IMG/VR virus record: IMGVR_UViG_3300012642_000011
Span: 224,001 to 288,000 of that record
DNA length: 64,000 nucleotides
Strand: one strand, 5' to 3'
Source of the DNA: a virus
The notes under the pieces are model-generated. The model did not search any database. It had not been told where the DNA came from and saw only the letters and a list, made by a program, of their open reading frames with translations. Shown here in pieces: positions 2,886-53,832 of this stretch (positions are counted from its first letter, which is position 1; each line of letters starts with the position of its first letter). The position numbers and the translations under genes are program-made.

Positions 2886-3200
2886 TACTCTCCTAATAGA
2901 TGTTTAAAGATGTGAACGTGGTTGATTCATTCGAGGTGATGGGCGGGTGTTTGTTCACGACATGTTATCTCCTTGAAAGCATTGGTCTTATGTTGTTCTC
3001 TTGATCTGATGCTCTCAATGTACAATAGGAACTCTTCACAGTCAAGTCAAGTCGAAGAAATTGTCGTGACGTGTGTAGGTTTTACGAAGACAAGTGTACG
3101 CTTCACCTTTAGCGGGAGGTTAAGGGACACAATTTAAACATCCCGTTATGAAGACAACGGCCCGCTGTCCTCCCGTGTGGGATTCTAGCGTGCCGCTGGT

Positions 3201-3566
3201 TCAGTAGTACAGGGCGATCCACCCGATGGTTTCCCCGTCATCGTCCTGCACAGTGGTCGTGTAGAAGTGAATCAGATCGGTTTCGGGGTTGTCGTTGAAC
3301 GCTCGTGCGATCATGCCTGCACTGAACACCTCGGAAGTGTGCATGATTGCGCCGTCGTAGCCGTGCTGGTTGCTGGAACCGTGGAGGGTTTTGAGGCCGT
3401 GGGGGATCGTGAGTTCCAACGCGCCATCGTGCTTGTCGTAGGTCTCCACCGTCTCGGGGAAGTCATGCTCAAGGATGGTCTGGTACTCACCGTTGGCACG
3501 GACGAGGACGGCGGCGTACTCGCTGTCGTTGATGGCTTGGGCTGCGTCGTTGTAGATGCTGGACAT
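3201..3566 (-). CDS. hypothetical protein, paralog family with 11454..11906 and 56927..57361
   Basis: Start MSSIYNDAAQ after conserved leader; shared motifs (LMHESE/HTSE, IGWIALYY vs FSWVTLYREP). Confidence 0.5.
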   Translation of the reverse strand: MSSIYNDAAQAINDSEYAAVLVRANGEYQTILEHDFPETVETYDKHDGALELTIPHGLKTLHGSSNQHGYDGAIMHTSEVFSAGMIARAFNDNPETDLIHFYTTTVQDDDGETIGWIALYY

Positions 3567-5369: not shown

Positions 5370-5625
5370 GGTGTCCTCTTTCAGTCTAGGATGGTGGTGG
5401 CAGTGTTGCCAATGTCTTCAGGCTACACGGACGACATGGGCGCTGTCAAGTACTCATCTGGAATCAGGTGGGCACGGGTATCCCTTGTCTGTCAGGGGTG
5501 AATTGACAACAAGACGCTCCATCGATGGAATCAATCCATACTACTTTGACAGGACTGCACATTTGTGGAAGGATACTTACAAAGGCAACCATGCCTGGAC
5601 AGGCAACCATCACCTGAAGGAGTAG

Positions 5626-5724
5626 ATGATGAACAACATCACCACCCGCGAGCAGATGCACAATCTGGTGCCTCTGATGAACGCTCTGAACCGTCACCCG
5701 CAGTCGCTGATTTTGTTACAATAA
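5626..5724 (+). pseudogene. 5' fragment of a gene truncated by IS insertion (MMNNITTREQMHNLVPLMNALNRHPQSL + 4 IS-encoded codons)
   Basis: RBS GAAGGAG; ORF runs into the AT-rich IS left end at ~5712 and stops at 5724. Confidence 0.4.
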
Positions 5725-7262
5725 TCACAATCCTAACAATTTTTACATAAGAGGATTTTCACGATAGTTCTTGATATAATCAAGCATGAGAAAAACACAC
5801 GCACCATTTAGACTTACGCATTATGAGATCCACGAAGGAAAAGCCACCAAAAAGGCAATCCTTCAAGAACTCACACGTATGAGCACATGGATGCGCGCAG
5901 AACAAGAACACTACTTCAAAAGCGACATGAACCGCATCATCCAAGAATTTCACAAAGGTGAAATCTTTACCGGTTCCCTTAACTCCCTCGGACGAACCCT
6001 CAACATACAACCATACAAGAACTACCCACACAATGCCTACAACATGAGCGAAATGCTCAGAACTTCCGTCCTCGCCCGCACCGCCGGACAAATACAAGAT
6101 GCCGCAATCTGCGAAATCATCAACAAAGACAATCAAAATGATACAAAAAAGATCATCCAAGACTTCAAGAATACTTATCCACACCTCAAAAAACCCACAG
6201 AAGCACACACCACAGCAGTAGCCAAAAGGCTCATCGAGAAGGGGGTCATTGCTGGAGAACCTGCTCCTGATGGGATCATTAACCTCTCCGCCACAGATAC
6301 TCACTATTGCAAAATCACAAGAGATAATCGCAATCTTTATTTAACTATTCGCTCCCTTGGAGAGTTAGGGCGAGTTGTGCTGAAGTTCAGAATCCCCAAA
6401 AGCGATAGGTTTAGCGGGGGTAAAATAACACGACCCAATATTGCTATCAAAAATGGGGAACCTGTTTTCTACTTCACTGTTCAACATGAGATTGAAACCT
6501 TACCCTACAACTCCCGCGTTCTCGGAGTAGATCTCGGCAAGATTGAAGAATATGTTGCTACCATTGTTGATGGTAACGAGATGAGCTATAGCGCTCCTTA
6601 TTATGCTCGAAAGAAAGTGAAAAGCATCACTGAACAGATGGATAAACTATGGAGACAGTATAATTCTAATAAATACAAGAAAGAAATGAATGAGAAGTTT
6701 GGTCATTTAAATCGCGCAAGCATTCATAAGACGGAATGCCAGAGAATCAGGTCAAGAATCACTCGGTTGAAGAATGAGAGAGCACTCACTATTGCTGCTC
6801 ATTTGGTAGAGGTTGCTGAGCGCAATGGCGTTAGCCTGATTTCTGTTGAGCAGTTATCATGGTTAGGGTCTAAAGGTGGCAAGTGGGAGCATTCTGCTAT
6901 TCAGAATGCTATGGAGAATCGTGGGAGACGTTCTGGCATCGGGGTGCGTAAAGTGAGTGCTAGGGGGACTTCCACTCATTGTTCTAAGTGTAATAAGGAG
7001 GCTCGTCAGTCTGGGCGTTTTGTGATTTGTGATTCTTGTGGTTTAAAGTTGAATCGTGATGTGTCTGCTTCTCGTAAGGTAGGCGTGAGGGCTATTCCTA
7101 ACGCTACTAAACAGTTTAACCATTATAAGCAGGTTTTATCGGTGATGACGCGATCATCGAGGCGGGTTACTATGGTTCCCTCTCCTTACCTCCAGAGTGT
7201 TACGATTGATTCTCAGGAATCTAAGAATTGTAACAACCTAGAGTAGCGTCCGCTGTTGAACC
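5712..7262 (+). mobile_element. IS200/IS605-family tnpB-only insertion (IS1341-like), AT-rich island; boundaries approximate
   Basis: Abrupt drop in GC at ~5712 and return at ~7247; contains TnpB ORF; no tnpA. Confidence 0.6.
5786..7246 (+). CDS. tnpB: TnpB-like RNA-guided endonuclease (RuvC-like D/E/D and CxxC..CxxC zinc ribbon), 486 aa
   Basis: N-term ...HAPFRLTHYE...; VLGVDLGK (RuvC-I), ISVEQL (RuvC-II), CSKCNKEARQSGRFVICDSCGLKLNRDVSASRKV (Zn ribbon + RuvC-III); AT-rich codon usage. Confidence 0.75.
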   Translation: MRKTHAPFRLTHYEIHEGKATKKAILQELTRMSTWMRAEQEHYFKSDMNRIIQEFHKGEIFTGSLNSLGRTLNIQPYKNYPHNAYNMSEMLRTSVLARTAGQIQDAAICEIINKDNQNDTKKIIQDFKNTYPHLKKPTEAHTTAVAKRLIEKGVIAGEPAPDGIINLSATDTHYCKITRDNRNLYLTIRSLGELGRVVLKFRIPKSDRFSGGKITRPNIAIKNGEPVFYFTVQHEIETLPYNSRVLGVDLGKIEEYVATIVDGNEMSYSAPYYARKKVKSITEQMDKLWRQYNSNKYKKEMNEKFGHLNRASIHKTECQRIRSRITRLKNERALTIAAHLVEVAERNGVSLISVEQLSWLGSKGGKWEHSAIQNAMENRGRRSGIGVRKVSARGTSTHCSKCNKEARQSGRFVICDSCGLKLNRDVSASRKVGVRAIPNATKQFNHYKQVLSVMTRSSRRVTMVPSPYLQSVTIDSQESKNCNNLE

Positions 7263-7645
7263 ATGACATCGAGAACACATGGGGGCTGCATGTTGTCGCT
7301 GTCAGCGTTGATAACCCGAACCTGCTCATCACCACAGACATGATGGGGGAGAGTTCCAAGGTGCTGGTCATCGACGGCGACATTGACTTGCGCGACATGG
7401 ATGACCCTGATTCCTATGATGAGGATGGGTCCATTGCCTCCGATATGGTCTTCAACATCGTGGATGAGGTGATGGGGGTGATGGAGACCAACATCCTCAC
7501 GGACTTCTATCGCCTCTTCCTTGACAAGAACACCAAGGTCGAACTTAACCCCATGCTCATCACAAGCCTGTCGAAGTCGGGGGTGCGGTTGTATGTCGCC
7601 TCTGGTTACGAACTCAAGGTCATGAAGATCGCCCGTCTCGCCTGA
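7256..7645 (+). CDS. hypothetical acidic protein; possibly the 3' remnant of the gene interrupted by the IS (no RBS, TTG-start ORF)
   Basis: ORF begins immediately after IS right end without promoter/RBS; terminator hairpin downstream. Confidence 0.35.
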   Translation: MNHDIENTWGLHVVAVSVDNPNLLITTDMMGESSKVLVIDGDIDLRDMDDPDSYDEDGSIASDMVFNIVDEVMGVMETNILTDFYRLFLDKNTKVELNPMLITSLSKSGVRLYVASGYELKVMKIARLA

Positions 7646-7650
7646 TCTCA

Positions 7651-7688
7651 AGCAAGAACCCCAGTCAGACATAACTGGGGTTCTTGCT
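7651..7688 (+). terminator. hairpin agcaagaacccc-agtcagacataact-ggggttcttgct
   Basis: 12-bp perfect stem after stop of 7256..7645. Confidence 0.5.
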
Positions 7689-7863
7689 TGGCTCTCAATC
7701 AGGGGACACAATAAGTGACTTCTTCCAACTCGTAACCTTGAACTCTCCTCGCGCTTTCATCTTCTGTAGAAGTCATGTGTCCTTGGACAGCACGCAACCC
7801 CGACTCTACCATGTGTGAAACAAGGTCGGATCGGGGTTGCGTCGTCTATGCGCAGATGAGGCA

Positions 7864-8462: not shown

Positions 8463-8777
8463 TCAAGCGACGATTTCGAGGATTTCCTCGCGGTGCGGGT
8501 GAATTCTCACCGTGACCCCATGGAAGTCAAGATCAAAGAACCGCTCGCCCTCGAACGCGTCACGACCCACCCCCACCACGGTGGCGACTCGCGGAGCATA
8601 GGCCCCGAGGTAGGCACCGGCGAAATCGGGATTAATCTTCAGCATCCATCCCACGCACTCGATATGATCGGGGTTGTCTTTCGACTTGATGACGCCGTTG
8701 TGCGACTTGACCAGAGCCAGCACGTCGCCTACCTTGATGGCGGACTGAAAGACGGGAGTGGTGTTGTAGTCCTTCAT
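8463..8777 (-). CDS. hypothetical protein (MKDYNTTPVFQ..., 104 aa)
   Basis: Conserved leader 8778-8860 with AAGGAGAGAAC-ATG; upstream 21 codons of ORF are translated leader. Confidence 0.55.
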   Translation of the reverse strand: MKDYNTTPVFQSAIKVGDVLALVKSHNGVIKSKDNPDHIECVGWMLKINPDFAGAYLGAYAPRVATVVGVGRDAFEGERFFDLDFHGVTVRIHPHREEILEIVA

Positions 8778-9016
8778 GTTCTCTCCTTGAGAGTGATGGT
8801 CTTGGGTTGTTCCCTTGACCTGATGAATCAATAGTACCACGAGGGACGCTCCATGTTCAAGTACCCTATGGAGTAATTTTTACGGCACGCTCGGCAGCAC
8901 AATCGCTGCGTCATTACCGTCTTGTAATGCTTGATTGACGAGATTGCGTTTATGGTGTAGGCTGGTTTCAGAACAACAGATCAGGGCGACTCGCCCCTCA
9001 CAGAAACGAGAACATC

Positions 9017-13436: not shown

Positions 13437-13775
13437 TCAGCGTTCGAGACCAGCCTCGAACGCGGCGATCACGAGGTGTGACACAGTTGAGTAGACATCC
13501 TCGATCCCGCTGTAGCCGGAGCTGTGACCCTCACCATAGGAGTAGTTAAACACTCGATCAGCGATGTGGTCGGGAATGTCGTCGGTCAGGTAGTCATCGC
13601 GGAACTGCTTAGCGTGGCGCTCCCGTTCCTCGCGCTCGATTCGGTAGCGCTCCTCACGCTCGATGCGACGCGCCTCCTGCTTGGCGCGCTCCTCTTCCGC
13701 CTGGGCTTCAGCGAGAGCCTGCTTGGCGGCGTCGAGGGCGGCTTCGGCTGCGATCACTTCTGGGGACTTCTGCAT
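13437..13775 (-). CDS. hypothetical coiled-coil protein (EERAKQEARRIEREERYRIEREERER)
   Basis: Conserved leader; charged repeat region. Confidence 0.5.
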   Translation of the reverse strand: MQKSPEVIAAEAALDAAKQALAEAQAEEERAKQEARRIEREERYRIEREERERHAKQFRDDYLTDDIPDHIADRVFNYSYGEGHSSGYSGIEDVYSTVSHLVIAAFEAGLER

Positions 13776-13999
13776 AATACTCTCCTTGTGGAGTCGTGGT
13801 CTTGGGCTGCTCCCTTGACCTGATGAATCAATAGTACCACGGGGGACGCTCCGCCGTCAAATCTATCAATCGTGGTAGTGCTATAACATCTCGGATTGGT
13901 CGAGGCGCTGGATGACTTAGGTATCAGGGGACACAAGAATTGCGACAACGAGGATAAGAACACGCCCCCATCCTCGCGGTAAGGATGGGGGTGTGTGAG

Positions 14000-20084: not shown

Positions 20085-20453
20085 TCAGCGAGAGGTGTTC
20101 AGAACCGAAAAAAGGTCATTCATAAGCATGGCGGCAACACGGTTCCGTGACGCCTCATCTGCAGGCACGGGAACGTCCGACATTGCCATGTGGATGAGCC
20201 TCTTCGTCTGGTCAGACAGGAACTCCTCGGCGATCTGGGTATCGGTCGCACCGGCGTCACGCTTTCTCTTGAGGTTGCCAGCAATCATCTTACGATGGCG
20301 GGCGTCCATGAAAGCCTTGAGGTCATGAGAAGAGATCGTTTCAACAAGGTTCGATGTGCTTGCGACCTCTACAGCCGACTTGTAATCCCCCTCAGCACGA
20401 TTGATGAACTGGTCGATGATGAACGTGACGATGTCCTGCTGATCCTGCTCCAT
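20085..20453 (-). CDS. hypothetical protein, 122 aa
   Basis: Conserved leader. Confidence 0.55.
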   Translation of the reverse strand: MEQDQQDIVTFIIDQFINRAEGDYKSAVEVASTSNLVETISSHDLKAFMDARHRKMIAGNLKRKRDAGATDTQIAEEFLSDQTKRLIHMAMSDVPVPADEASRNRVAAMLMNDLFSVLNTSR

Positions 20454-20695
20454 GATGTTCTCCTTGAGAGTGTTGGTCTCGGGCTGTTCCCTTGACCTGA
20501 TGAAATGATCTTACCACACGGGACGCTCCACGGTCAATCTTTCCATGAAACTTCATGCATGAATGGTTCCGCGTTCGGACCTATTCATGCATGGCCCCTC
20601 CCCTGTGGGGACACAATATGGGTGACCACTGTGCGCACGATAAAGCCCCGCCGTCCCTCCGTGATGGAGTTCAGGCGGGGCGTCGGGGGTCAGGA

Positions 20696-25769: not shown

Positions 25770-27150
25770 AGAAAACAGATGCTTAATTACATGCTTTTTG
25801 CTATACTATAATGTAGAAACGGGAAGAAGGTGAAAAATGATACTCACAGAGAAGCATGTGATTCGCAAAAATCACATGAACTTCAATGAGTGCGATCATC
25901 TCGCTTTCTTGAGCAAGAATCTTTACAATTCTACTCTTTTTGCCGTTCGCCAGCACTACTTCAGTAATGGTGAATACCTTAACTACAATAATGCAAATAA
26001 AATCTTCACCATAGAGGGACAAAGCGACTATGTTGCCTTGCCCAGAAAAGTCAGCAAACACACAATGATGCTGGTGGATCGTTCTTTCAAATCCTTTTTC
26101 AAACTCTTGGAGAAGAAAAGAAATGGAGAATATGACAAAACCGTAAGAATCCCAAAATACTTAGACAAAACAAAAGGTCGTCAAGTTGTTCATTATGAAA
26201 AAGGGGCATTGTCCTTCAAGAAGAAGGAGGGGTACCTCTATCTTTCACAGACTAACATATATTTGAAAACCAAGGTAACTTCGGATCAAATTCAATTTGC
26301 TAGAATCGTCCCTCGGGGTGAGCATTATGTGATTGAGGTGGGATATAGGGTTCCTCAGGTAGATAATCTTCACGATAATGGGCGATACCTGTCCCTTGAT
26401 CTTGGGGTGAATAATCTTGTCACAGCAGTGAGCAATGTGACAGCCCCGATACTCTTCAATGGGCGACCATTGAAGAGTATCAATCAGTTTTACAATAAGA
26501 GATTTGCATCCCTTCAGTCTAAACTCGGAGAGGAGGTGAAAAGCAGTAAGCAGATCAAGACTTTGCATCAGAGAAGATTGAACAAAATCAATGATTATCT
26601 CCACAAAGCCTCAAGAATGTTGGTGAATCACGCAGTTGAAAACTCTATCAATACTATAGTTATTGGATACAATAAAGAGTGGAAACAAGACATCAACATT
26701 GGGCGAAGAAACAATCAGAATTTTGCCTCTATTCCTTTTGCAAGGCTTATTGAGATGATTGAATACAAGGCTTCTCTTGTTGGTATCAACACCATCAGAC
26801 AGGAAGAGTCCTATACTTCCAAGTGTTCCTTTCTTGACGATGAGCAGGTGAGGAAAGCCAATTCCTATTCAGGAAGAAGGGTGAGTCGAGGTCTTTTCAA
26901 GACTGGGCAAGGACTTCGCGTTAATGCTGATGTGAATGGTGCCTTGAATATCTTAAGAAAAGCACTGAAAGTATCATGGAATGACCAGTTGTGGTCAGAC
27001 TGTGTAGCGGCGTGCAGTGTGCCGAAGCGGGTCAATATACCAGCTTGAAATGTTAATTCATGTTTATCATGTTTTCAACTAACTGTCCATCTTCTCGTTC
27101 ATCGTAAGTATTTTTTCTCCTTGGGAATAGTGGTTTCCGAGCGTGAAGCG
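25770..27150 (+). mobile_element. second IS200/IS605-family tnpB-only insertion, AT-rich; boundaries approximate
   Basis: GC drop at ~25770, return at ~27150; carries TnpB-like ORF antisense to flanking genes. Confidence 0.55.
25837..27048 (+). CDS. tnpB: TnpB-like protein, 403 aa, with degenerate zinc finger (only one Cys in place of CxxC..CxxC)
   Basis: LSLDLGVNN (RuvC-I), ESYTSKCSF..., NADVNGALNILRK (RuvC-III) typical of TnpB; second CxxC absent; RuvC-II Glu not obvious. Confidence 0.65.
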   Translation: MILTEKHVIRKNHMNFNECDHLAFLSKNLYNSTLFAVRQHYFSNGEYLNYNNANKIFTIEGQSDYVALPRKVSKHTMMLVDRSFKSFFKLLEKKRNGEYDKTVRIPKYLDKTKGRQVVHYEKGALSFKKKEGYLYLSQTNIYLKTKVTSDQIQFARIVPRGEHYVIEVGYRVPQVDNLHDNGRYLSLDLGVNNLVTAVSNVTAPILFNGRPLKSINQFYNKRFASLQSKLGEEVKSSKQIKTLHQRRLNKINDYLHKASRMLVNHAVENSINTIVIGYNKEWKQDINIGRRNNQNFASIPFARLIEMIEYKASLVGINTIRQEESYTSKCSFLDDEQVRKANSYSGRRVSRGLFKTGQGLRVNADVNGALNILRKALKVSWNDQLWSDCVAACSVPKRVNIPA

Positions 27151-33124: not shown

Positions 33125-33457
33125 TCACTTGATGGTCACGATGAAATCGCTTCCGTACTCATCCTTGCCCTCAAGCGTCTTAGCGTCGATCAGGCCGTTG
33201 AACTCCTTGATGCGATCAACGATGCCTGCCGTGCCCTTGCTTTCAGGCGTCCATCCCAGATGCAGACGGAGAGCGGGCGCATAGTCCTCGTAGTCAACGA
33301 AGACCGTGATCCCCTCGTGCTCCTTCTCGAACTGACGAGCAATCTGCTCAATGTTGGAATGCTTCGCCTTACCAGCACCGATGCTGTAGCCATAGGCGTC
33401 CAGTCGGGCACCACTCAGCGTAGGGGTGTTCTGGGTGAAGTGGTAGTGGTAGGACAT
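33125..33457 (-). CDS. hypothetical protein, 110 aa
   Basis: Canonical conserved leader. Confidence 0.55.
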   Translation of the reverse strand: MSYHYHFTQNTPTLSGARLDAYGYSIGAGKAKHSNIEQIARQFEKEHEGITVFVDYEDYAPALRLHLGWTPESKGTAGIVDRIKEFNGLIDAKTLEGKDEYGSDFIVTIK

Positions 33458-33511
33458 GTTTCTCTCCTTGAGAGTTGTGGTCTTGGGCTGTTCCCTCGAC
33501 CTGATGAATTA

Positions 33512-33545
33512 ATAGTACCACAGGGGACGCTCCATACGCAACACG
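33512..33545 (-). promoter_or_regulatory. conserved promoter exemplar (-35-like, spacer GGAGCGTCCCCTGTGG, TGnTACTAT)
   Basis: Read on minus strand upstream of 33125..33457. Confidence 0.5.
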
Positions 33546-37235: not shown

Positions 37236-37475
37236 TCAGGCGAGGTTATCCGGCAGGTCTCCGGTCTCTCGCAGGGAACGCTTCACCGCCGACTTGGCGT
37301 TACGGATGCCAGAGGCGGACTTGGAAGTGGAGGGGCCGACGAACATGCGACCGTTGATGAGGCGGTAGCGGATGTGACCGGAACCCGTCTTGCCCTCCAC
37401 TTCGCCTAGGTTGTTCTTCACGATCCAATCGTGAAGTTCCTTGGCGATCCCCGTTGCTCCGATTCGCTTCCCCAT
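37236..37475 (-). CDS. hypothetical protein (MGKRIGATGIAKELHDW..., 79 aa)
   Basis: Conserved leader. Confidence 0.5.
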   Translation of the reverse strand: MGKRIGATGIAKELHDWIVKNNLGEVEGKTGSGHIRYRLINGRMFVGPSTSKSASGIRNAKSAVKRSLRETGDLPDNLA

Positions 37476-37703
37476 GATCTCTCCTTGAGAGTTGCGGTCT
37501 CGGGCTGTTCCCTCGACCTGATGAATCAATAGTACCACAGGGGACGCTCCATCGTCTACTCCGCAGAGAATTTATTTTCAGCACTCTTGGAGGCAGATGG
37601 ACAAGGGGACACAATAATCGTATCCCTCTTGACTAAGAGGACAGGATACAGTTCGGCCCACCATCCTCCCGTGTGTGGGATTCTGGTGGGCCGAACTGTC
37701 TCA

Positions 37704-40488: not shown

Positions 40489-40705
40489 GGTCTCTCCTAG
40501 GAGTAGTGGTTGGTGTTGAGATTGGCCCCTGTGGCCTCGCTGTTTGCTCTCAACCTGATGAATCAATAGTAGCACGGGGGACGCTCCATGTGCAACATGT
40601 GCAGCACGAATAATCTCGGGATAGTCGCAGCCCTCTATTGGATCACGTAAACTCGTGATAGTATGCTCACACATACCTATGGGGACACATAACTTGCTGT
40701 AAATA

Positions 40706-40757
40706 GTCAGGTAGCACAGTAGTGGTTTTCCTACTGTGCTACCTGACTTTATTTATT
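40706..40757 (+). terminator. hairpin gtcaggtagcacagtag-N-ctactgtgctacctgac + TTTATTTATT; same element recurs after each LbH paralog (42990, 44510, 45218)
   Basis: Perfect 17-bp stem; T-run on plus strand. Confidence 0.5.
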
Positions 40758-40762
40758 CGGAA

Positions 40763-41488
40763 TCAGGTCGCACAATCGTTTCCGGTCAACTTTGCATAAT
40801 CACACACTTGTGCGTTGCCAGACACTTGTGCATTTCCGGCCACAAATGCACAATCGTACACTTGTGCGTTACCGGACACTTGTGCGCTGTCTGTTACTTC
40901 TGCATCGTCAGATACCTGTGTATTACCAGTCACTTGAGCGTTGTCATAAATAAATGCTTCACCGGATACTCGTGCTTTACCAGACACCCGTGCGTTACCT
41001 GCCACGCGCGAGTTGCCATAAATTCGCGTGTTACCAGACACTCGCGCATTATCGTACACCTCTGCGTTGCCATATACTCGTGCGTTGTCATGCACAAGAG
41101 CGTCATCAAACACGTAAGCGTCGCCGGACACACAAGCGCTACCGTACACCGAAGCATTGCCAAATACCCAAGCGTTCTCGAACACTCGCGCGTTGCCGTA
41201 AACCCGCGAGTCCTCAGTGACGTATATGTTACCAAGCAACTCTGCGTTATCATACGCCTGAGCGTTCTCGTACACCCGAGCGTTATCAGTCACGTGCGCA
41301 TTGCCGTACACCTTCGCCTCATCATTGACCCATGCATTATCTGAGAGATTGTCCATGCTCTCCACATAACCGCCCAGATCCCCAGATTTCACCTCATGAT
41401 CGGGCAGGTCGCGTGTGGCTCGAATACGGTGGAGCGTTCGACCGTTGTAGTGAATCGTTTCATCTGTCAGTTCGTAATTCTTATTCAT
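40763..41488 (-). CDS. hexapeptide-repeat (LbH-like) paralog, 241 aa
   Basis: N-term MNKNYELTDETIHYNGRTLHRIRATRDLP..., ~30 xVxGNAxV repeats; co-operonic with 41503..42258 (14-nt gap). Confidence 0.65.
   Translation of the reverse strand: MNKNYELTDETIHYNGRTLHRIRATRDLPDHEVKSGDLGGYVESMDNLSDNAWVNDEAKVYGNAHVTDNARVYENAQAYDNAELLGNIYVTEDSRVYGNARVFENAWVFGNASVYGSACVSGDAYVFDDALVHDNARVYGNAEVYDNARVSGNTRIYGNSRVAGNARVSGKARVSGEAFIYDNAQVTGNTQVSDDAEVTDSAQVSGNAQVYDCAFVAGNAQVSGNAQVCDYAKLTGNDCAT
40800..41340 (-). repeat. tandem 18-bp coding repeats (gcg tta ccg gac act cgc-type), also in 41760-42110, 43060-43600, 43860-44210, 44600-44900, 45300-45930 and 60-330
   Basis: Periodicity produces the many short overlapping out-of-frame ORFs in the six-frame track. 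Confidence 0.8.
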
Positions 41489-41502
41489 GATTTCTCCTTG
41501 TA

Positions 41503-42258
41503 TTATTTAGTCCAGCGTGCGACACGGGCGCGGCACTGATCAATGACGGATTGGTACTCGGGACGTGCGTCACGAATGATTTCAGGGTCAGTGGTTTCAA
41601 CCCATGAATCCGAGTCGCAGAGGATCTGGTGATCATCAAGAGTGCCTGACTTGCAACCGATATGGAGAACATGATCATCCGTGGTGCGGTGCAGGGTCCA
41701 ATTGAATTGCCGATTGGTGCAGAGTGTGCCGATCATAATATGCTTTTCTTCAGCCACTCGCGCGTACCCAAACACGTGTGCGTTACCAAAAACTCGCGCG
41801 TACCCAAACACCCGTGCGTTACCACACACCCGTGCCCAATTGTACACTTGTGCGTCATCGGACACTTGTGCGTTGTCTGTTACTTCTGCATTCTCAAATA
41901 TGTGTGCCTTACCAGCCACTTGAGCTTTGTCATAAATAAATGCGTCATCGGACACTAGTGCGTCCCCGAACACTTGTGCGTCCCCGAACACTTGTGCGTT
42001 ACCGGACACGCGTGCGTTGCCATATACACGCGCGTCATCGTACACCAAAGCGTTCCCTGACACTCGTGCGTCATCGTACACCATCGCCTCATCAGCGACC
42101 CATGCGCTATCGGAGAGGTTGTCCAGATGTTCCACGAAGCCGCCCAGATCGCCGGGCTTTACAGCGTGGTAGGGTAGTTCTCGTGTTGCACGAATGCGGT
42201 GGAGCGTTCGACCGTCGTAGTGAATCGTTTCATCTGTCAGTTCGAAATGCTTATTCAT
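41503..42258 (-). CDS. hexapeptide-repeat paralog with extra ~80-aa Cys-containing C-terminal domain, 251 aa
   Basis: Same N-term domain; C-term AEEKHIMIGTLCTNRQFNW... unique. Confidence 0.65.
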   Translation of the reverse strand: MNKHFELTDETIHYDGRTLHRIRATRELPYHAVKPGDLGGFVEHLDNLSDSAWVADEAMVYDDARVSGNALVYDDARVYGNARVSGNAQVFGDAQVFGDALVSDDAFIYDKAQVAGKAHIFENAEVTDNAQVSDDAQVYNWARVCGNARVFGYARVFGNAHVFGYARVAEEKHIMIGTLCTNRQFNWTLHRTTDDHVLHIGCKSGTLDDHQILCDSDSWVETTDPEIIRDARPEYQSVIDQCRARVARWTK

Positions 42259-42467
42259 GGCGTCTCCTTGAAAATGGTAGGGATTATCTTATCAACGATC
42301 CTATGCTGCCCTTACCCTATCATATGGGACGCTCTATGCGCAACCTATTTCTTGTACTAATTGGGCTATATTGCGACAAGTGATGCCGAAGTTTACACAA
42401 GGGGACACAGTAGCGAAAACAGAGAACGGACAAGGCGACAGTCGATGCCACCTTGTCCGTTCTCTGA

Positions 42468-42779
42468 TCAGGCTGCGAGGTTGTAGTAATCCTTGAGGTC
42501 AGTGTTCTTGAACCCACCCATAGCGTGAGCGTTTCGCTCCGACATGGCCCACGTGCGGATCTTCTTGTTCTGGGTGCGGTGGAAGTAGTTCCGGTTCCGC
42601 TGGACTCGCGTTCCGAAGTTGACGATATCCTCGTAGTTCGCGTAGGTGGTGTTGTCCTTCTTGTTCTTGACACGATTGATGGTGCTCTCATCGGCGGGGA
42701 AAAGGTAGATGCCCTTGCCGGGAACGCGGATCTCGACATGACCCTTGACATCGGAAGCGAAGACCTGGAAGTTCTGCAT
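42468..42779 (-). CDS. hypothetical protein (MQNFQVFASDVKGHVEIRVPGKG..., 103 aa)
   Basis: Conserved leader; embedded between LbH paralogs. Confidence 0.5.
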   Translation of the reverse strand: MQNFQVFASDVKGHVEIRVPGKGIYLFPADESTINRVKNKKDNTTYANYEDIVNFGTRVQRNRNYFHRTQNKKIRTWAMSERNAHAMGGFKNTDLKDYYNLAA

Positions 42780-43022
42780 AATCTCTCCTTGAGAGTGGTA
42801 AGGGTCGCTCTGTGTTGCTCTCCCTTGCTGATGAGTCAATAGTAACACGGGGGACGCTCCATGCGCAACCTGACAGCAGAAATAATCTAGGGAGGCTCAC
42901 AACCTCTCGATTGGATCACTTCAATTCGTGATAGTATGCTCACACATACCTATGGGGACACATAACTTGCTGTAAACAGTCAAGTAGCACAGTAGGGATA
43001 CAACTACTGTGCTACTTGGGTT

Positions 43023-43724
43023 TTACCACCTGCAATCAAACCAATTAATTTCATCAGTAACTATTGCATTACCGGACACCCGCGAGTTACCAATCACCCG
43101 CGCATATTCGCAAACCCTCGAACAACCAGTCACTATTGCATTACCTGACACCAATGCTCTGTCTGTCACTTGTGCATTACCATTCACCATTGCTCTTTCA
43201 GAGACCAGTGAATTACCAAATACCTGTGCGTCACCCCTCACTATCGCGTCATCGATAACCCTTGTTTTGCCGTGTACACGAGCATTGCCAGACACATGCG
43301 CATGACCGAACACCCACGCTTCATCGAATACTCGTGCAGAGATATATACATATGCGTAACCGAACACCCGTGCGTCACCATAGACCCACGCTTCACCGGA
43401 CACTGATGAATTACCACTCACCAATGCGTTGCCGAAAACCCGCGCACTATTGTACACATGTGCAGTACCAGTCACCAATGCATTACCGGACACCATTGCC
43501 TTACCATTCACTTTTGCGCCCCCTGATACCCGCGCGTCCCCGTACACCATAGCCTCGCCACCGACCCATGCGATATCTGAAAGGTTATCCAAACGCTCCA
43601 CAAAACCACCCAGATCACCTGACTTTACGCGGTGCTCGGGCAAGTCTTGCGTGGCGCAGATACGATGGAGCGTGTGTCCTTCATAGCGGATCGTCTCATT
43701 TGTTAGTTCAAAGTGTTTAGTCAT
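43023..43724 (-). CDS. hexapeptide-repeat paralog, 233 aa
   Basis: N-term MTKHFELTNETIRYEGHTLHRICATQDLP... Confidence 0.65.
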   Translation of the reverse strand: MTKHFELTNETIRYEGHTLHRICATQDLPEHRVKSGDLGGFVERLDNLSDIAWVGGEAMVYGDARVSGGAKVNGKAMVSGNALVTGTAHVYNSARVFGNALVSGNSSVSGEAWVYGDARVFGYAYVYISARVFDEAWVFGHAHVSGNARVHGKTRVIDDAIVRGDAQVFGNSLVSERAMVNGNAQVTDRALVSGNAIVTGCSRVCEYARVIGNSRVSGNAIVTDEINWFDCRW

Positions 43725-43825
43725 GGTTTTCCTCGTGAAGTAATGATCTTTGTTTATTTCCTATAGTAGATTTTTAGATTTTCCATCGGATTATTTCATT
43801 TCTTGATCAGGTTACTCACAGACGC

Positions 43826-44347
43826 TCACCTGTGCATCACGGTCACTTCTGCGTCGCCAGACACTCGCACGTCACCTGTCATCCATGCTTCTCCAAACAC
43901 GCGTGCGTTACCAATCACATTCACGCTGTCGGCCACAACCGCTTCCCCATACACGTGAGCATTCTCAGCCACGTATGCATTACCGGACACTCGCGTGTCG
44001 CCATGCACTCGCGCGTCACCTGTCACCCATGCTTCGCCGTACACTCGCGCATTACCGAACACCCGCGCGCGACCATCCACCAGTGCGTTACCGGCCACCT
44101 GTGCATTACCAGACACCTCTGCATTGCTGTACACCTGCGCGTTATCATATACTCGCGCGTCATCGTACACCTTGGCCTCATCAGCAACCCATGCGTTACC
44201 TGAAAGGTTGTCCATGCCCTCCACAAAACCGCCCAGATCACCGGCCTTCACGTCATGAATAGGCAGGTTTCGTGTTGCACGGATGCGGTAGAGCGTGCGG
44301 CCCTCATGATTGATGGTCTCGTCAGTCAGTTCGAAGTGCTTATTCAT
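43826..44347 (-). CDS. hexapeptide-repeat paralog, 173 aa
   Basis: Same family. Confidence 0.65.
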   Translation of the reverse strand: MNKHFELTDETINHEGRTLYRIRATRNLPIHDVKAGDLGGFVEGMDNLSGNAWVADEAKVYDDARVYDNAQVYSNAEVSGNAQVAGNALVDGRARVFGNARVYGEAWVTGDARVHGDTRVSGNAYVAENAHVYGEAVVADSVNVIGNARVFGEAWMTGDVRVSGDAEVTVMHR

Positions 44348-44573
44348 AGTTTCTCCTTGAAATGGTAGGTGATGACCTTACCCTATCATGGAGACGACCC
44401 ATACGCAACATGTGCAGCATGAATGATCTATGGAGACTCACGGTATCTCAATTGGGTCATTTCAACTCATGAGACTACTAAAGGGACACAAAACGTGGTA
44501 CAAACAAGGCAATCAGCACAGTAGGAATCCCACTACTGTGCTGATTGCCTTTTATTGCTTGGAATCAGGCCGC

Positions 44574-45038
44574 TCAATCAGTGCCGATTACCGACATCTC
44601 ATCGAACACTCGCGCGTCGCCGGACACTCGTGCGTTACCGGACACCCATGCGTTACCGAACACGTTCGCATCACCGGACACCCATGCGCTACCGGAGACA
44701 TATGCCCCTTCGTACACCCACGCATTGCCATAGACCCATGCATCGTCGTACACACGCGCATTGCCAAACACTCGTGCGTTACCGGACACTCGGGCGTAAC
44801 CGAACACTCGCGCGTTGTCATACACTCGCGCGTTATCAGTCACGTGTGCATTGCCGTACACCTTCGCCATATCAGCGACCCACGCGTTATGTGAGAGATT
44901 GTCCGTGCCCTCCACGAAACCACCCAGATCACCCTGCAGCACGTTGTGCTCTGGCAGGTCGCGTGTGGCACGGATGCGATAGAGCGTGCGACCCTCATGG
45001 TTGATGGTCTCGTCAGTCAGTTCGAAGTGGTTGCTCAT
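44574..45038 (-). CDS. hexapeptide-repeat paralog, 154 aa
   Basis: Same family. Confidence 0.65.
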   Translation of the reverse strand: MSNHFELTDETINHEGRTLYRIRATRDLPEHNVLQGDLGGFVEGTDNLSHNAWVADMAKVYGNAHVTDNARVYDNARVFGYARVSGNARVFGNARVYDDAWVYGNAWVYEGAYVSGSAWVSGDANVFGNAWVSGNARVSGDARVFDEMSVIGTD

Positions 45039-45268
45039 AGCGTCTCCTTGAGAGTGGTAGGGTGTTGTCCTATTGACGTTCCCGTGATTCCCTTATCCTA
45101 TCATGGGAGACGCTCCACATGCAACACTAGTGATCTAGGGAGGCTCACGACATCTCAATTGGATCACTTCAACTCGTAAGAATGCTAAAGGGACACAAAG
45201 TATTAAGTAAACAATCAGGTAGCACAGTAGTGGTATTCCTACTGTACTACCTGACTTTTGTTGCTTGA

Positions 45269-46084
45269 TCAGGTCGCTCGTTCGTTACCTAACACTCGTG
45301 CGTAACCATACACCAGCGCGTTGTCGGTCACCCATGCATCACCCTGCACCTGAGCGTTGTCTTCCACTCGCGCATAGGTGAGCACGCATGCGTTACCAAA
45401 CACTCGCGCGTTACCGGACACTCGCGCATAGTCAGTCACTTGCGCGTTATCGTACACCATTGCACCACCGAACACCTGAGCGTTACCGGACACCTGTGCC
45501 TCACCGAACACTTGGGCGTTACGAGATACCCACGCGTTACCGGACACCACTGCATCGCCGTACACTTGTGCGTCTTCATCAATATATGCACCACCGAACA
45601 CCTGAGCGTTACCGTACACTCGGGCGCAATCGGACACTCGTGCGTTATCGTACACTCGCGCGTCGCAAAGCACTAGCGCGTTACCCGTCACTCGCGCGTT
45701 ACCGGACACTCGCGCATAGTCAGTCACTTGCGCGTTATCGTACACCATTGCACCACCGAACACCTGAGCGTTACCGGACACCTGTGCCTCACCGAACACC
45801 CAAGCGTAACCGAACACTCGCGCGTCGTCGCCAATATATGCCTTACCGAACACCCATGCATCATTGGATACCCGTGCGTTACCAGATACCAGCGCGTTAC
45901 CAAACACATACGCCTCATCAGCAACCCATGCATCATCTGAAAGGTTGTCCAGACGCTCCACGTAACCACCCAGATCCCCAGCCTTCACATCATGATCGGG
46001 CAGATCTCGTGTCGCACGGATACGATAGAGCGTTCGACCGTAGCGGATGATGGTATCGTTTGTCAGTTCGAAGTGCTTGCTCAT
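45269..46084 (-). CDS. hexapeptide-repeat paralog, 271 aa, with internal ~300-bp duplication
   Basis: Blocks 45400-45540 and 45690-45830 nearly identical at DNA level. Confidence 0.65.
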   Translation of the reverse strand: MSKHFELTNDTIIRYGRTLYRIRATRDLPDHDVKAGDLGGYVERLDNLSDDAWVADEAYVFGNALVSGNARVSNDAWVFGKAYIGDDARVFGYAWVFGEAQVSGNAQVFGGAMVYDNAQVTDYARVSGNARVTGNALVLCDARVYDNARVSDCARVYGNAQVFGGAYIDEDAQVYGDAVVSGNAWVSRNAQVFGEAQVSGNAQVFGGAMVYDNAQVTDYARVSGNARVFGNACVLTYARVEDNAQVQGDAWVTDNALVYGYARVLGNERAT

Positions 46085-46337
46085 GATTTCTCCTTATGAA
46101 TGAGGGGCGATTCGTGTTTGCTGCCTTCGTCGCTAACGCAACTCTACCATAGGAAACACTCCACTATCAACTCTGAAACGAAACTTCAAGGTCAATTCTT
46201 ACCATCCTTTGAGTATAGGGGACACAAGTTGCGAGGGTGTTTCCTACAAGTCCTCATGGTCTCCCCATGTTGACAATGAGTTACCCATGTGTTAGATTTA
46301 AGTCATCAACAGGTTCATTGGTACAGGAGAGTGAAAC

Positions 46338-52674: not shown

Positions 52675-53832
52675 TCAGCGACGGTTCAAGTACGCATTGA
52701 AGGCAAGAGACAGCGGCTTGATGAGAGGACGTGACCACTCGCCGTGAGTCTGCACCACGTCAGCGCCCACAGCCGTCTTGAACATGGTCAGGCCAGAAGT
52801 CTTGCCGTTCGCCTTCAATGATCCCGGCACGCCGATCAGGTCATACCACTTGCACCCATACTTCACGGCGTCAGAGATCATCTCCCACTGAACAGCGCGG
52901 GAAGCGTACATCTTACGATGCTCAGCACTGGAACCGCCGTACAGGTACCACAGAAAATCGCCCTGACGGATCGTGAGCGCTGCAGCAAGCGGAATGTCCT
53001 CGTGGTAAGCGACAATGACCTCAGCGTGGGCGATCTCCGAGCGATCAAAAACTTCAAGGAGACGCTCAAAGTAGGAGACAGGTCGGGGAGTGAACTGCTC
53101 ACGCTCTGCCGTCATCACATAGAGTGCGTGGAAATCATGCACGAGGGACGCTCCACGCTTGATGATCAGACCCTGCTTCAGAGACTTGCGCGTTTCGGAT
53201 CGAGAGGTCTGGTTCATGCGCATGAGGACGCTCTCGGCATCTGACTCAATCGGAATGCGTGCTTGAAACATGGGCTGACCATTACCGAAGTCCTCTTCGA
53301 TAGAAGGCTCCTTGAATCCAGCGCGAACCATGTCTGATTCAATGGAGATCTGGCGATAATCCACATCTGCCTGAAGTTCCATCAGGTGCTCGTACTGGTC
53401 GTCCTTGAGTGCCTTGCGTACCACGTCAGCATCCCAACGTCGGACAGTCTCAGGAAGACCCAGACGGAGTTCGAACGCACCAGTCTTCTTCACGTAGGAA
53501 GTCAGGGCAGGGAGCACATCAGAGATATGCACATCTGCGTTTACTACAGGACCTTCACTGATGTAGGCCAGAGACAGGTTGCCGATCACAGGGATCTTGT
53601 TCACGACAGGAAGCGGGCGGTAGAGGATCAGGGACGCTCCAACCAGAACGTCCTCATGGTAGATGCCTACGGACTCGTTGCGCCACTCGCTCTTGACCTC
53701 ACCCCAGTGTGGGTTCTGCAGGAAGGATGCAGCAGGACGGGTAGACAGATATGCCTCATGCTGATCTGCGGTGATAGCGCGGATCGTGTAGTCCTTGTTT
53801 GCCTTGATTGGCTTGGTTGCGGTAGCGGTCAT
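52675..53832 (-). CDS. FemAB-family (Fem/FemX-like) peptidoglycan aminoacyltransferase homolog, 385 aa
   Basis: Size and C-terminal WYLYGGSS...R...WEMISDAVKYGCKWYDLIG motif typical of FemABX/GNAT-fold transferases. Confidence 0.5.
   Translation of the reverse strand: MTATATKPIKANKDYTIRAITADQHEAYLSTRPAASFLQNPHWGEVKSEWRNESVGIYHEDVLVGASLILYRPLPVVNKIPVIGNLSLAYISEGPVVNADVHISDVLPALTSYVKKTGAFELRLGLPETVRRWDADVVRKALKDDQYEHLMELQADVDYRQISIESDMVRAGFKEPSIEEDFGNGQPMFQARIPIESDAESVLMRMNQTSRSETRKSLKQGLIIKRGASLVHDFHALYVMTAEREQFTPRPVSYFERLLEVFDRSEIAHAEVIVAYHEDIPLAAALTIRQGDFLWYLYGGSSAEHRKMYASRAVQWEMISDAVKYGCKWYDLIGVPGSLKANGKTSGLTMFKTAVGADVVQTHGEWSRPLIKPLSLAFNAYLNRR

What the first reader, a model, noticed from the sequence alone, without database searches (positions are those of the whole stretch)
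5600..7300. AT-rich TnpB insertion that splits a resident gene; candidate guide just past the right end
A ~1.5-kb AT-rich block at about 5712-7246 carries an apparently intact TnpB (RuvC D/E/D motifs plus a CxxC..CxxC zinc ribbon) and no tnpA. A plus-strand ORF with a good RBS (5626) runs for 28 codons and is then terminated by IS-derived sequence. Downstream of the IS, an ORF (7256..7645) with no promoter or RBS continues to a terminator. That pattern fits insertion into an expressed gene. TTAC (5716-5719) lies immediately left of the AT-rich block, as for IS608-type targets. The ωRNA should overlap the 3' end of tnpB, with its guide in roughly 7247-7265.
Basis: partly seen in the sequence, partly recalled or inferred. 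Interest (0 to 1): 0.6.

Follow-up and report, generated by a model that had tools for sequence, protein, structure and literature searches.

The report
tnpB-only IS607 element splitting phage gene
A 1.5-kb mobile element that has lost its transposase but keeps an intact RNA-guided nuclease gene sits inside a small gene of a giant bacteriophage, and related phages in public metagenomes still carry the uninterrupted gene, so this is a well-documented but fairly ordinary case of a known kind of element.

Summary
The insertion is real. Related phage contigs carry an uninterrupted 152-aa gene, and aligning them gives the element as 5695..7249 (1555 bp, ±4 nt because CGTC lies at both junctions).

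The element holds a 91-nt left end and one intact gene, tnpB (5786..7246). D249, E355, D425 and two CxxC pairs are conserved, and the predicted fold is Cas12f/TnpB-like. There is no tnpA.

It belongs to the IS607 family, not IS200/IS605. Four relatives (33-59% identical TnpB) have an IS607 serine-recombinase tnpA directly upstream.

The actual target motif is ACCGT (5690-5694). ACYGT abuts the left end in 5 of 6 elements, and every right end finishes in AGYGT. This mirrors the published TGGG (target motif) versus TCGG (right end) pair of the C. botulinum IS607 element.

A hairpin in the tnpB 3' end (7139-7160) covaries across seven elements, which supports an ωRNA.

One empty allele (L031) carries ACCGT plus a perfect guide match. 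Eight others read ACCGC. RNA-guided homing between co-infecting phages is inferred, not shown.

New member of a known kind; moderate interest.

The parts
5616..5694 (+). Ribosome-binding site (GAAGGAG, 5616-5622) and the host-derived 5' fragment of the interrupted 152/153-aa phage gene. It runs from ATG 5626 (or 5629) through codon R, CGT 5692-5694. The frame then reads 9 element-derived codons and stops at 5722-5724.
   Evidence: The alignment to empty alleles L008/L011/L012 is identical up to 5693. All junctions are listed.
5690..5694 (+). ACCGT: the target motif and candidate TAM that abuts the left end. It contains the shared YGT, the presumed crossover region.
   Evidence: ACYGT sits directly left of the left end (LE) in the window, L007, L016, L019 and L033. 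L032 has CTTGT. Empty allele L031 reads AACCGT|CCGCTG.
5695..7249 (+). The inserted element: 1555 bp, IS607 family, tnpA-less. The boundaries are ambiguous by up to 4 nt because CGTC occurs at 5692-5695 and at 7247-7250.
   Evidence: Occupied versus empty alleles. Removing it restores the ORF. The occupied allele is 100% identical in L001 and L003-L005; L002 differs only more than 2 kb to the right of the element.
5695..5785 (+). Left end (91 nt). It has a conserved box CACCCGCAGTCGCTGATTTTGTT and four ~9-10-bp-spaced T(T/C/A)ACA(A/T)(T/A) repeats (the 5713-5722 copy TTGTTACAAT is the inverse of 7227-7236), which are candidate TnpA binding sites. An extended -10 sequence TGATATAAT (5772-5780) lies 5 nt before the tnpB ATG.
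   Evidence: The box is shared with L007 (CGCCTGCAGTCAATGATTTTGTT) and L032 (CATCCGCAGTCGCCCGTTTT). The promoter and repeats were read by eye. The consensus scan, which needs a -35 hexamer, did not list the promoter.
5786..7246 (+). tnpB, 486 aa, apparently intact RNA-guided nuclease. RuvC residues D249, E355, D425; zinc ribbon C399/C402/C415/C418.
   Evidence: Pfam TNB domain 2.6e-11. NCBIfam guided_TnpB scores 71.6 bits, below its cut-off of 100. Invariant catalytic columns. Sequence profile matches Cas12f/TnpB structures at 4e-17. AlphaFold2 model pLDDT 85.7, with full-length Foldseek hits to AsCas12f and ISFba1 TnpB.
7139..7160 (+). ωRNA scaffold hairpin 1: a 7-8-bp stem with an ACGCG-containing loop (GACGCG in the window), inside the tnpB 3' coding region.
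   Evidence: Seven elements: 91% of cells paired, 5 of 8 pairs changed on both sides, 0 of 500 shuffles reach the score, and slid registers give 25-43% paired.
7199..7234 (+). ωRNA terminal hairpin: GUUACGAUUGAUUC-UCAG-GAAUC-UAAG-AAUUGUAAC.
   Evidence: Present in the centroid fold. Two compensatory pairs relative to L007. L016, L019 and L034 have an equivalently placed hairpin of unrelated sequence.
7245..7249 (+). Right-end terminus AGCGT. It looks like the TAM but differs from ACCGT at position -4, which is the presumed self/non-self discriminator. The tnpB stop TAG is at 7244-7246.
   Evidence: Right ends finish in AGCGT (window, L016, L019, L034) or AGTGT (L007, L032). The analogy is TGGG versus TCGG in CboIStron (paper 10.1101/2023.11.20.567912).
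7250..7269 (+). Predicted guide segment of the ωRNA (CCGCTGTTGAACCATGACAT; the 16-20 nt length is assumed). It is also the start of the host gene's 3' fragment.
   Evidence: This is the first flank sequence after the right end. It is identical in all nine empty alleles. Guide length and exact first base are inferred from published TnpB systems.
7250..7645 (+). Host-derived 3' fragment of the interrupted gene (131 codons plus stop TGA 7643-7645). It is in frame with the tnpB stop by coincidence. The first in-frame start is TTG 7256, with no ribosome-binding site.
   Evidence: In L007 the host frame is +1 relative to tnpB, so the in-frame arrangement is not conserved.
7650..7689 (.). Perfect 16-bp inverted repeat directly after the host gene (AAGCAAGAACCCCAGT...ACTGGGGTTCTTGCTT).
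   Evidence: Read. The terminator scan did not list it because there is no T tract.

Best explanation
This is a non-autonomous, tnpA-deleted IS607-family insertion sequence at 5695..7249. It sits, in sense orientation, after codon 23 of a 152/153-aa gene of unknown function in a megaphage (contigs up to 437 kb).

Shown:
- The insertion and its exact junctions.
- The family assignment, through relatives that carry tnpA.
- An intact TnpB.
- A conserved left-flank motif ACYGT against a right-end terminus AGYGT, with YGT identical on both sides of every element.
- A covarying hairpin in the tnpB 3' end.
- Occupied and empty alleles coexisting in metagenomes.

Inferred mechanism:
- An IS607 serine recombinase, supplied in cis before tnpA was lost or in trans, recombined a circular form of the element with the target at a short overlap within CGT. 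That leaves the overlap on both sides and produces no true duplication.
- tnpB is now driven by the promoter that drives tnpA in autonomous relatives. The sequence just upstream of the ATG, AGTTCTTGATATAATCAAGCATGA, is homologous to the tnpA leader of L007.
- The tnpB transcript's 3' end folds into the ωRNA scaffold (about 7076/7139 to 7249) and reads out into a 16-20-nt guide starting at 7250.
- The TnpB-ωRNA complex should cleave any allele in which ACCGT directly abuts CCGCTGTTGAACC, that is an empty or excised site. It should spare its own right junction, which reads AGCGT.
- In a co-infected cell, repair from the occupied genome would copy the element in (homing). Without tnpA, that is the only way this copy can spread.
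- The host gene is truncated. Its 3' part could be made only by reinitiation at TTG 7256.
For: - Junctions: empty alleles L008-L015 and L031 and the restored ORF.
- Family: an NF033518 transpos_IS607 tnpA (139 and 132 bits, cut-off 110) overlaps the start of the tnpB homologue in L007 and L016. The same gene order occurs in L006, L019 and L033.
- L007 control: joining its flanks at TGT restores one HD-domain match spanning residues 47-133, across the junction at residue ~121.
- End motifs.
- TnpB integrity.
- ωRNA.
- Published precedent for every mechanistic step in an IS607 element: scarless donor joint, TAM equal to the TnpA target, a TAM-like right end differing at one base, and TnpB-driven homing that does not require TnpA.
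- Population data: the occupied allele is in 28 contigs and the empty allele in 23. The V/I and T/A variants downstream occur with both states.
Against: - No RNA data, so ωRNA ends and guide length are assumed.
- Nuclease activity and the TAM are untested.
- The element is seen at this one site only. No other copy was found in IMG/VR, JGI metagenome contigs or GTDB genomes.
- The occupied contigs I could read are essentially one clone. I therefore have no direct trace of spread between haplotypes beyond the four-gamete pattern in protein variants.
- The overlap is not the GG of classical IS607.
- L032 has CTTGT rather than ACYGT, and the ends of L020 could not be parsed cleanly.
- NCBIfam guided_TnpB is below its cut-off, and Pfam OrfB_IS605 does not hit.
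Confidence: 0.8

Rival explanations
1. One reading: an IS200/IS605 (IS608-type) tnpB element that inserted 3' of a TTAC target at about 5712-5719, mobilised as single-stranded DNA by a Y1 transposase.
For: TTAC is present at 5716-5719 next to the drop in GC. tnpB-only IS200/IS605 derivatives are common (general knowledge).
Against: Empty alleles place the junction at 5694/5695, so TTAC is 22 nt inside the element. Four relatives carry an IS607 serine recombinase and none carries a Y1 transposase. The conserved flank motif is ACYGT.
Confidence: 0.02
2. An inert relic. The element inserted once in an ancestor of this phage lineage, lost tnpA, and is now inherited only vertically. The presence/absence polymorphism would then reflect lineage sorting and ordinary phage recombination, and TnpB would no longer act.
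For: Only one site is known, with no other copy in three collections. There is no tnpA in the window. The readable occupied contigs are clonal. The T-to-C change in eight empty alleles is not statistically distinguishable from background divergence: about 2.7% divergence gives roughly 0.13 expected changes in 5 nt.
Against: The 486-aa ORF is intact in all four sequence variants of the cluster, including all catalytic and zinc ligands. The ωRNA hairpins and the AGCGT terminus are intact. A 1.5-kb dead insert in a phage would be expected to decay or be lost.
Confidence: 0.2
3. An IStron-like element that splices out of the host mRNA through a group I intron, so the interrupted gene remains functional.
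For: The element is in sense orientation within an expressed gene, and IS607-family IStrons exist.
Against: Only 91 nt precede tnpB. No group I intron or any other Rfam family reached even E=0.1 in 5400-7800 on either strand.
Confidence: 0.02
4. A domesticated TnpB used by the phage as a regulator or as a weapon against other targets (TldR-like, or anti-competitor), rather than for its own maintenance.
For: Phage-encoded TnpB derivatives with host-directed guides are known (papers listed). The element is fixed in a widely sampled phage clone.
Against: The RuvC triad is intact, unlike TldR. The guide position corresponds to the element's own flank, and the end architecture matches mobile relatives.
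Confidence: 0.05

Closest known systems
CboIStron, an IS607-family element of Clostridium botulinum (Zedaveinyte et al., bioRxiv 10.1101/2023.11.20.567912)
   Same: Serine-recombinase family. tnpB has an ωRNA at the right end. The TAM abuts the left end and equals the TnpA target motif. The right end finishes in a TAM look-alike that differs at one base (TGGG versus TCGG there, ACCGT versus AGCGT here). The empty site is scarless. TnpB-driven homing works without TnpA.
   Different: There is no group I intron and no tnpA in this copy. The overlap is within YGT rather than GG. The TnpB is about 490 aa and only distantly related. The host replicon is a megaphage.
ISXfa1 TnpB, IS607, Xylella fastidiosa (Yoon et al., NAR 2023, PMC10711439)
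   Same: An IS607 TnpB with an RNA of about 150 nt that extends past the transposon boundary. The boundary nucleotides are fixed by the recombinase overlap and belong to the scaffold.
   Different: Its TAM is GGG, and it is an autonomous element in a bacterial chromosome. Whether the first flank base here belongs to scaffold or guide is untested.
IS607 of Helicobacter pylori and the serine-transposase model (Boocock & Rice 2013, PMC4058570; Chen et al. 2018, PMC6188088)
   Same: No terminal inverted repeats at the tips, no true target duplication, an overlap sequence present on both sides, and short sub-terminal repeats as presumed TnpA sites.
   Different: The overlap there is GG with little further target preference. 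This clade shows a 5-nt left-flank motif and a YGT overlap.
IS200/IS605 tnpB elements (ISDra2, IS608)
   Same: A TnpB nuclease with a RuvC triad and zinc ribbon, an ωRNA overlapping the 3' end, and a guide taken from the right flank.
   Different: Those use a Y1 transposase, single-stranded DNA hairpin ends, and insertion 3' of TTAC or TTGAT. None of these applies here.
Free-standing and intron-borne homing endonuclease genes of T-even phages (SegF, I-TevI and others; reviewed in PMC13565253)
   Same: The expected population behaviour: a nuclease gene present in some phage genomes and absent from close relatives, spreading in co-infection by cutting the empty allele.
   Different: Target recognition here would be RNA-guided and set by the flank. 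The element disrupts its target gene instead of sparing it.

Membership tests
IS607 family | Serine-recombinase TnpA with an N-terminal MerR-like helix-turn-helix, encoded directly upstream of tnpB | tested here: not met
   Absent from this copy: only 91 nt lie between the left end and tnpB, and tblastn of four TnpAs against the window finds nothing better than E=0.17. It is present in relatives L006, L007, L016, L019 and L033, where NF033518 scores 139 and 132 bits against a cut-off of 110. This copy is therefore a non-autonomous derivative.
IS607 family | Ends homologous to those of tnpA-bearing members | tested here: met
   The left-end box C(A/G)CC(C/T)GCAGTC..TGATTTTGTT and the right end ..GAGTAG(C/T)GT are shared with L007. 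The right-end terminus AGYGT is shared with L016, L019, L034 and L032.
IS607 family | No target duplication: a short overlap identical at both junctions and a scarless empty site | tested here: met
   CGT(C) is at both junctions, and empty allele L031 reads AACCGT|CCGCTG with a single copy. YGT is identical on both sides in all four elements with both junctions read (the window, L007, L016 and L032).
IS607 family | GG overlap dinucleotide (IS607, ISXfa1, CboIStron) | tested here: not met
   There is no GG at either junction. The shared bases are YGT. This feature holds for the characterised members and is probably not a family requirement.
TnpB (OMEGA RNA-guided nuclease) | RuvC D-E-D triad and CxxC..CxxC zinc ribbon in a WED-REC-RuvC-TNB fold | tested here: met
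   D249, E355 and D425 are invariant in 26 sequences, as are C399 and C415; C402 and C418 are conserved in at least 90%. PF07282 2.6e-11. The model has pLDDT 85.7 and aligns over ~480 columns to AsCas12f (E 7e-16) and to ISFba1 TnpB. Curated whole-protein thresholds are not reached: guided_TnpB scores 71.6 against 100, and there is no PF01385 hit.
TnpB (OMEGA RNA-guided nuclease) | Structured ωRNA encoded at the 3' end of tnpB and the right end, reading into the flank | tested here: inconclusive
   Covariation supports hairpin 1. A terminal hairpin is conserved in position. There is no expression data, no Rfam family matches, and the RNA ends are unknown.
TnpB (OMEGA RNA-guided nuclease) | TAM-dependent, guide-dependent DNA cleavage | not testable with these tools
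   Only the sequence logic is available: ACYGT at the left flanks, AGYGT at the right ends, and a perfect target in L031.
IS200/IS605 (IS608-type) | Y1 transposase in autonomous relatives and insertion 3' of TTAC/TTGAT | tested here: not met
   Relatives carry serine recombinases only. TTAC at 5716-5719 is internal to the element.
IStron | Group I intron at the 5' end of the element | tested here: not met
   No intron family appears in the Rfam scan of 5400-7800 at E<=10, and the 91-nt left end is too short.

The most novel reading that the evidence does not exclude
The tnpA-less element persists in a megaphage population purely as an RNA-guided homing gene. In co-infections, TnpB-ωRNA would cut empty alleles (ACCGT + CCGCTGTTGAACC, as in L031) of related phages and be copied in. 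The synonymous ACCGT-to-ACCGC change seen in eight empty contigs would then be a TAM or overlap escape allele. That would make this a natural drive-and-resistance polymorphism for a TnpB in viruses, carried by a rare long-form TnpB clade with a non-GG IS607 overlap.
Probability: 0.25. Interest if true: 0.65.

Novelty: new member of a known kind. Interest (0 to 1): 0.4.

Why it matters
The case provides a clean natural pair of occupied and empty alleles for an IS607-type TnpB in a phage, with the predicted TAM and guide target both readable from the data. That makes TnpB-driven homing between co-infecting viruses directly testable. So far this "non-restorative homing" has been discussed mostly as a possibility, with plasmid data only.

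It also defines the ends, the candidate TAM (ACYGT) and a covarying ωRNA hairpin for a small, divergent TnpB clade of about 490 aa. Roughly 25-30 representative clusters (50% identity) among 1.84 billion proteins match over most of their length. That could interest people mining compact nucleases.

Otherwise it is an ordinary IS insertion that knocks out a small gene of unknown function.

Tried and rejected
- Megablast of 5400-7800 against 50,697 phage records found nothing. tblastn of the restored host protein found nothing. tblastn of TnpB gave only about 23-28% identity hits to generic phage "transposases".
- The search for related loci with the 6-sequence alignment found no relative in IMG/VR, GTDB genomes or JGI metagenomes. 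The 26-sequence alignment was too divergent to build search patterns.
- Exact scans for the last 31 nt of the tnpB reading frame, which lie in the right end (7216-7246), found no copy in any of the three collections.
- The third homologue search, using a profile, added only P0028.
- Rfam gave no meaningful hit.
- The TAG of tnpB being in frame with the downstream host ORF suggested readthrough or a fusion protein. I rejected it as coincidence because the frame differs in L007.
- I first took the 10-bp inverted repeat (5713-5722 / 7227-7236) for terminal inverted repeats. It is sub-terminal, and its right copy is the 3' arm of the terminal ωRNA hairpin.
- I looked for signs of spread among haplotypes in the occupied contigs. 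Those I could fetch are one clone.
- The ends of L020 could not be parsed unambiguously. A tRNA-like flank resembles the left-end box, so I left it out of the motif count.
- The host gene has no Pfam or PHROG match.
Full report
**1. What is in the sequence**

Between about 5700 and 7250, GC falls to 0.37-0.48 from 0.52-0.58 in the flanks. The block holds one long ORF, 5786..7246 (486 aa).

Pfam recognises only the Cas12f1-like TNB zinc-ribbon domain (PF07282, 2.6e-11, residues 369-430). NCBIfam guided_TnpB scores 71.6 bits, below its cut-off of 100.

Upstream lies a 32-codon ORF (5626..5724) preceded by GAAGGAG. Downstream, a frame is open from 7247 to the stop at 7643-7645, with no start signal of its own.

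The window as a whole is packed with small genes, each behind a copy of a ~90-nt promoter and leader module. It comes from a metagenomic megaphage: the exact TnpB protein occurs on contigs of 332 kb and, for a cluster member, 437 kb.

**2.

A search with the conceptually rejoined host protein found a 152-aa protein, P0007, at 94% identity. It is encoded on eight contigs (L008-L015) with the same neighbouring genes as the window. A ninth empty contig, L031, came from P0009.

The DNA alignments and the listing of all junctions give these three states:
- Empty: ...CTGAACCG(C/T)|CCGCTGTTGAACC...
- Occupied, left junction: ...CTGAACCGT|CACCCGCAGTCGCTGATTTTGTTAC...
- Occupied, right junction: ...CCTAGAGTAGCGT|CCGCTGTTGAACC...

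The insert is therefore 5695..7249, 1555 bp. There are 4 nt of positional ambiguity because CGTC stands at both junctions.

Deleting it restores a 154-codon ORF. Only 23 codons of the upstream ORF are host-derived; the next nine and the stop come from the element.

**3. Family**

The TnpB has very few close relatives. The word-indexed search of 5.8 billion proteins returned six clusters. An exhaustive HMMER search of 1.84 billion representatives found roughly 25-30 representative clusters matching over most of their length, ahead of the general TnpB background.

In L006/L007 (59% identity), L016, L019 and L033 (33-36%), the homologue is immediately preceded, and overlapped, by a ~200-aa gene with MerR-type helix-turn-helix and Resolvase domains. 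Two of these genes score 139 and 132 bits on NCBIfam transpos_IS607, whose cut-off is 110. No Y1 transposase was seen.

The clade is therefore IS607-type. The window copy, like L032, is a tnpB-only derivative. No tnpA or tnpA remnant exists anywhere in the 64-kb window.

In the window, the 25 nt before the tnpB ATG (AGTTCTTGATATAATCAAGCATGA) resemble the leader of tnpA in L007 (ATTCTTTGATATACTATAGTATGA). This fits a clean deletion of tnpA that left tnpB behind the tnpA promoter, an extended -10 TGATATAAT sited 5 nt before the ATG. That is my reading by eye. The consensus scan, which requires a -35 hexamer, does not list it.

**4. End and target logic**

| Element | Left flank \| left end | Right end \| right flank |
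|---|---|---|
| window | GAACCGT\|CACCCGCAGTC | GTAGCGT\|CCGCTG |
| L007 | CACTGT\|CGCCTGCAGTC | GTAGTGT\|CCGTAC |
| L016 | GACCGT\|CCGTGATAGTC | GGAGCGT\|AGAACG |
| L019 | CACCGT\|CATGAATAATC | GGAGCGT\|GAACTA |
| L033 | CACCGT\|CAACGACTGTC | not available |
| L032 | TCTTGT\|CATCCGCAGTC | CGAGTGT\|GATGCC |
| L034 | not available | GTAGCGT\|GAATTG |

How each boundary was fixed:
- For the window, by the empty alleles.
- For L007, by rejoining the flanks, which restores an HD-domain protein. The Pfam match runs from residue 47 to 133, across the junction at residue ~121.
- For the right ends of L016 and L019, by the point at which two related elements diverge.

The left flank is therefore ACYGT in 5 of 6 elements, where the chance expectation per site is 2/1024. 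Every right end finishes in AGYGT. The Y matches on the two sides of each element: C/C in the window and L016, T/T in L007 and L032, the four elements with both junctions read. The right flanks are unrelated to each other.

This is the pattern published for the IS607-family CboIStron. There the TnpA target and the TnpB TAM are both TGGG next to the left end, and the right end finishes in TCGG. The single-base difference lets TnpB spare the occupied site (paper 10.1101/2023.11.20.567912, read).

Here the presumed discriminator is position -4 (C versus G). The overlap is not the GG described for IS607, ISXfa1 and CboIStron. It lies somewhere within YGT, and I cannot tell which two bases are exchanged.

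**5. The nuclease and its RNA**

D249 (GVDLG), E355 (VEQL), D425 (NRDVSAS), C399 and C415 are invariant in a 26-member alignment; C402 and C418 are conserved in at least 90% of members. The family profile hits Cas12f and TnpB structures by sequence (E about 4e-17).

An AlphaFold2 model built on that alignment has mean pLDDT 85.7. It aligns over roughly its whole length to AsCas12f (Foldseek E 7e-16) and also matches ISFba1 TnpB and a Fanzor2. Residues 450-486 are below pLDDT 50. This is the stretch of the ORF that overlaps the RNA hairpins, so it is probably constrained as RNA rather than as protein.

Evidence for the ωRNA:
- Hairpin 7139-7160 has a 7-8-bp stem and an ACGCG-containing loop (GACGCG in the window) and is present in seven elements. 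91% of cells are paired, 5 of 8 pairs are changed on both sides, 0 of 500 shuffles reach the covariation score, and slid registers give 25-43% pairing.
- A terminal hairpin (7199-7234) appears in the centroid fold and differs from its L007 counterpart by two compensatory pairs.
- L016, L019 and L034 carry a hairpin of unrelated sequence at the same position, directly before (G/T)AGCGT.

Whole-region fold energies are not exceptional (z -1.0 and -1.9), and no Rfam family matches. The RNA evidence therefore rests on comparison between elements, not on thermodynamics.

The guide should begin at 7250 (CCGCTGTTGAACC...). Whether the first flank base counts as scaffold, as reported for ISXfa1, is untested.

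**6. Population picture**

In the protein collection, the 3' fragment typical of the occupied allele (129 aa) occurs in 28 contigs as five sequence variants. The full-length 152/153-aa gene occurs in 23 contigs as nine variants.

Two polymorphic residues downstream of the junction (V/I and T/A) are found with both states. This is a four-gamete pattern and implies either recombination or repeated gain and loss.

The occupied contigs I could fetch are one clone: 100% identical over up to 11 kb, with L002 differing only more than 2 kb to the right. The empty contigs are about 97% identical to the window flanks and differ among themselves.

L031 has ACCGT followed by a perfect match to the predicted guide, so it is exactly the substrate the model predicts; its copy of the gene is frameshifted. 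L008-L015 read ACCGC, a synonymous CGT-to-CGC change that removes the T shared by all TAMs and overlaps. This is suggestive of escape. However, at about 2.7% background divergence, a change within a 5-nt motif is expected about once in eight cases, and the eight contigs share linked variants. I do not count it as evidence.

**7. Mechanism, with its status**

Shown:
- The insertion into a gene and the exact junctions.
- IS607 affinity.
- An intact tnpB.
- The TAM-like motif and the right-end look-alike.
- The covarying hairpin.
- Coexisting occupied and empty alleles.

Inferred from the published IS607 and IS605 systems:
- Integration by a serine recombinase through a circular intermediate.
- Transcription of tnpB and ωRNA from the former tnpA promoter, and possibly by read-through from the host gene.
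- Cleavage of ACCGT-plus-guide-match alleles.
- Copying of the element by recombinational repair in co-infected cells. Without tnpA, that would be the only route of spread, apart from mobilisation in trans.

The host gene has no known function (no Pfam or PHROG match). It is truncated after residue 23. The viability of the widely sampled occupied clone and the frameshift in L031 suggest the gene is dispensable.

**8. Alternatives**

- The IS608/TTAC model is refuted by the junctions.
- An IStron is excluded: the left end is only 91 nt and no intron hit was found.
- A fusion or readthrough with the in-frame downstream ORF is a coincidence not shared by L007.
- An inert relic cannot be excluded. 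It is the main rival to the "active homing" part of the explanation.

**9. Verdict**

The left boundary, the target motif and the IS family were wrong.

This is a new member of a known kind. It is a clean and well-delimited example, with a candidate TAM and natural target alleles for a rare TnpB clade in a megaphage, but it does not depart from the established IS607/TnpB model. Interest 0.4.

Noticed in passing
window 25770-27150 (ORF 25837..27048, +): A second, unrelated TnpB: 403 aa, with OrfB_IS605 and TNB domains, guided_TnpB 166 bits. It sits in its own AT-rich block between two minus-strand genes, has no tnpA, and shows no BLAST similarity to the first TnpB.
   Followed up: partly
window, e.g. 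8775-8860, 13775-13860, 20452-20537, 33456-33541, 37473-37558; about 20 copies in all: A conserved ~90-nt promoter and 5'-leader module precedes most small genes. On the coding strand it reads TTGnnC-ATGGAGCGTCC..-TACTAT..CATCAGGTCAAGGGAACAGCCCAAGACC..CTCAAGGAGAGA-ATG. The conserved leader may be a structured or regulatory RNA element.
   Followed up: no
window 40700-46100 and 1-500: An array of paralogous genes made of 18-nt-periodic YdcK beta-solenoid / hexapeptide repeats (Pfam PF18836, PF00132, bactofilin-like).
   Followed up: no
window 52675..53832 (-): A FemAB-family peptidyl-transferase gene (PF02388, 4e-47) in the phage. Together with an Lsr2-like gene in the related contig L024, it hints at a Gram-positive, possibly actinobacterial, host.
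   Followed up: no
L031 6001-6458: The only empty allele with an intact ACCGT motif has a frameshift in the 152-aa gene (94-aa and 57-aa ORFs). This may be gene decay or an assembly error.
   Followed up: no
L007 3251-5373 (and L006): The autonomous relative (tnpA plus tnpB, 59% identical TnpB) also sits in sense orientation inside a gene, in this case an HD-domain protein. Rejoining the flanks restores one continuous HD-domain match.
   Followed up: yes
L032 ~3197-3290 and L020 1-25: The elements of the P0010/P0006 subclade lie next to a tRNA-like 3' end (GGAGTTCGAATCTCCCGCAGGAAC). Its last bases resemble the CCGCAG box of the left end. The ends of L020 could not be parsed.
   Followed up: partly
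window 49915-50001 / 51329-51415: An 87-nt inverted repeat, 89% complementary, formed by two promoter/leader modules on opposite strands 1.3 kb apart.
   Followed up: no
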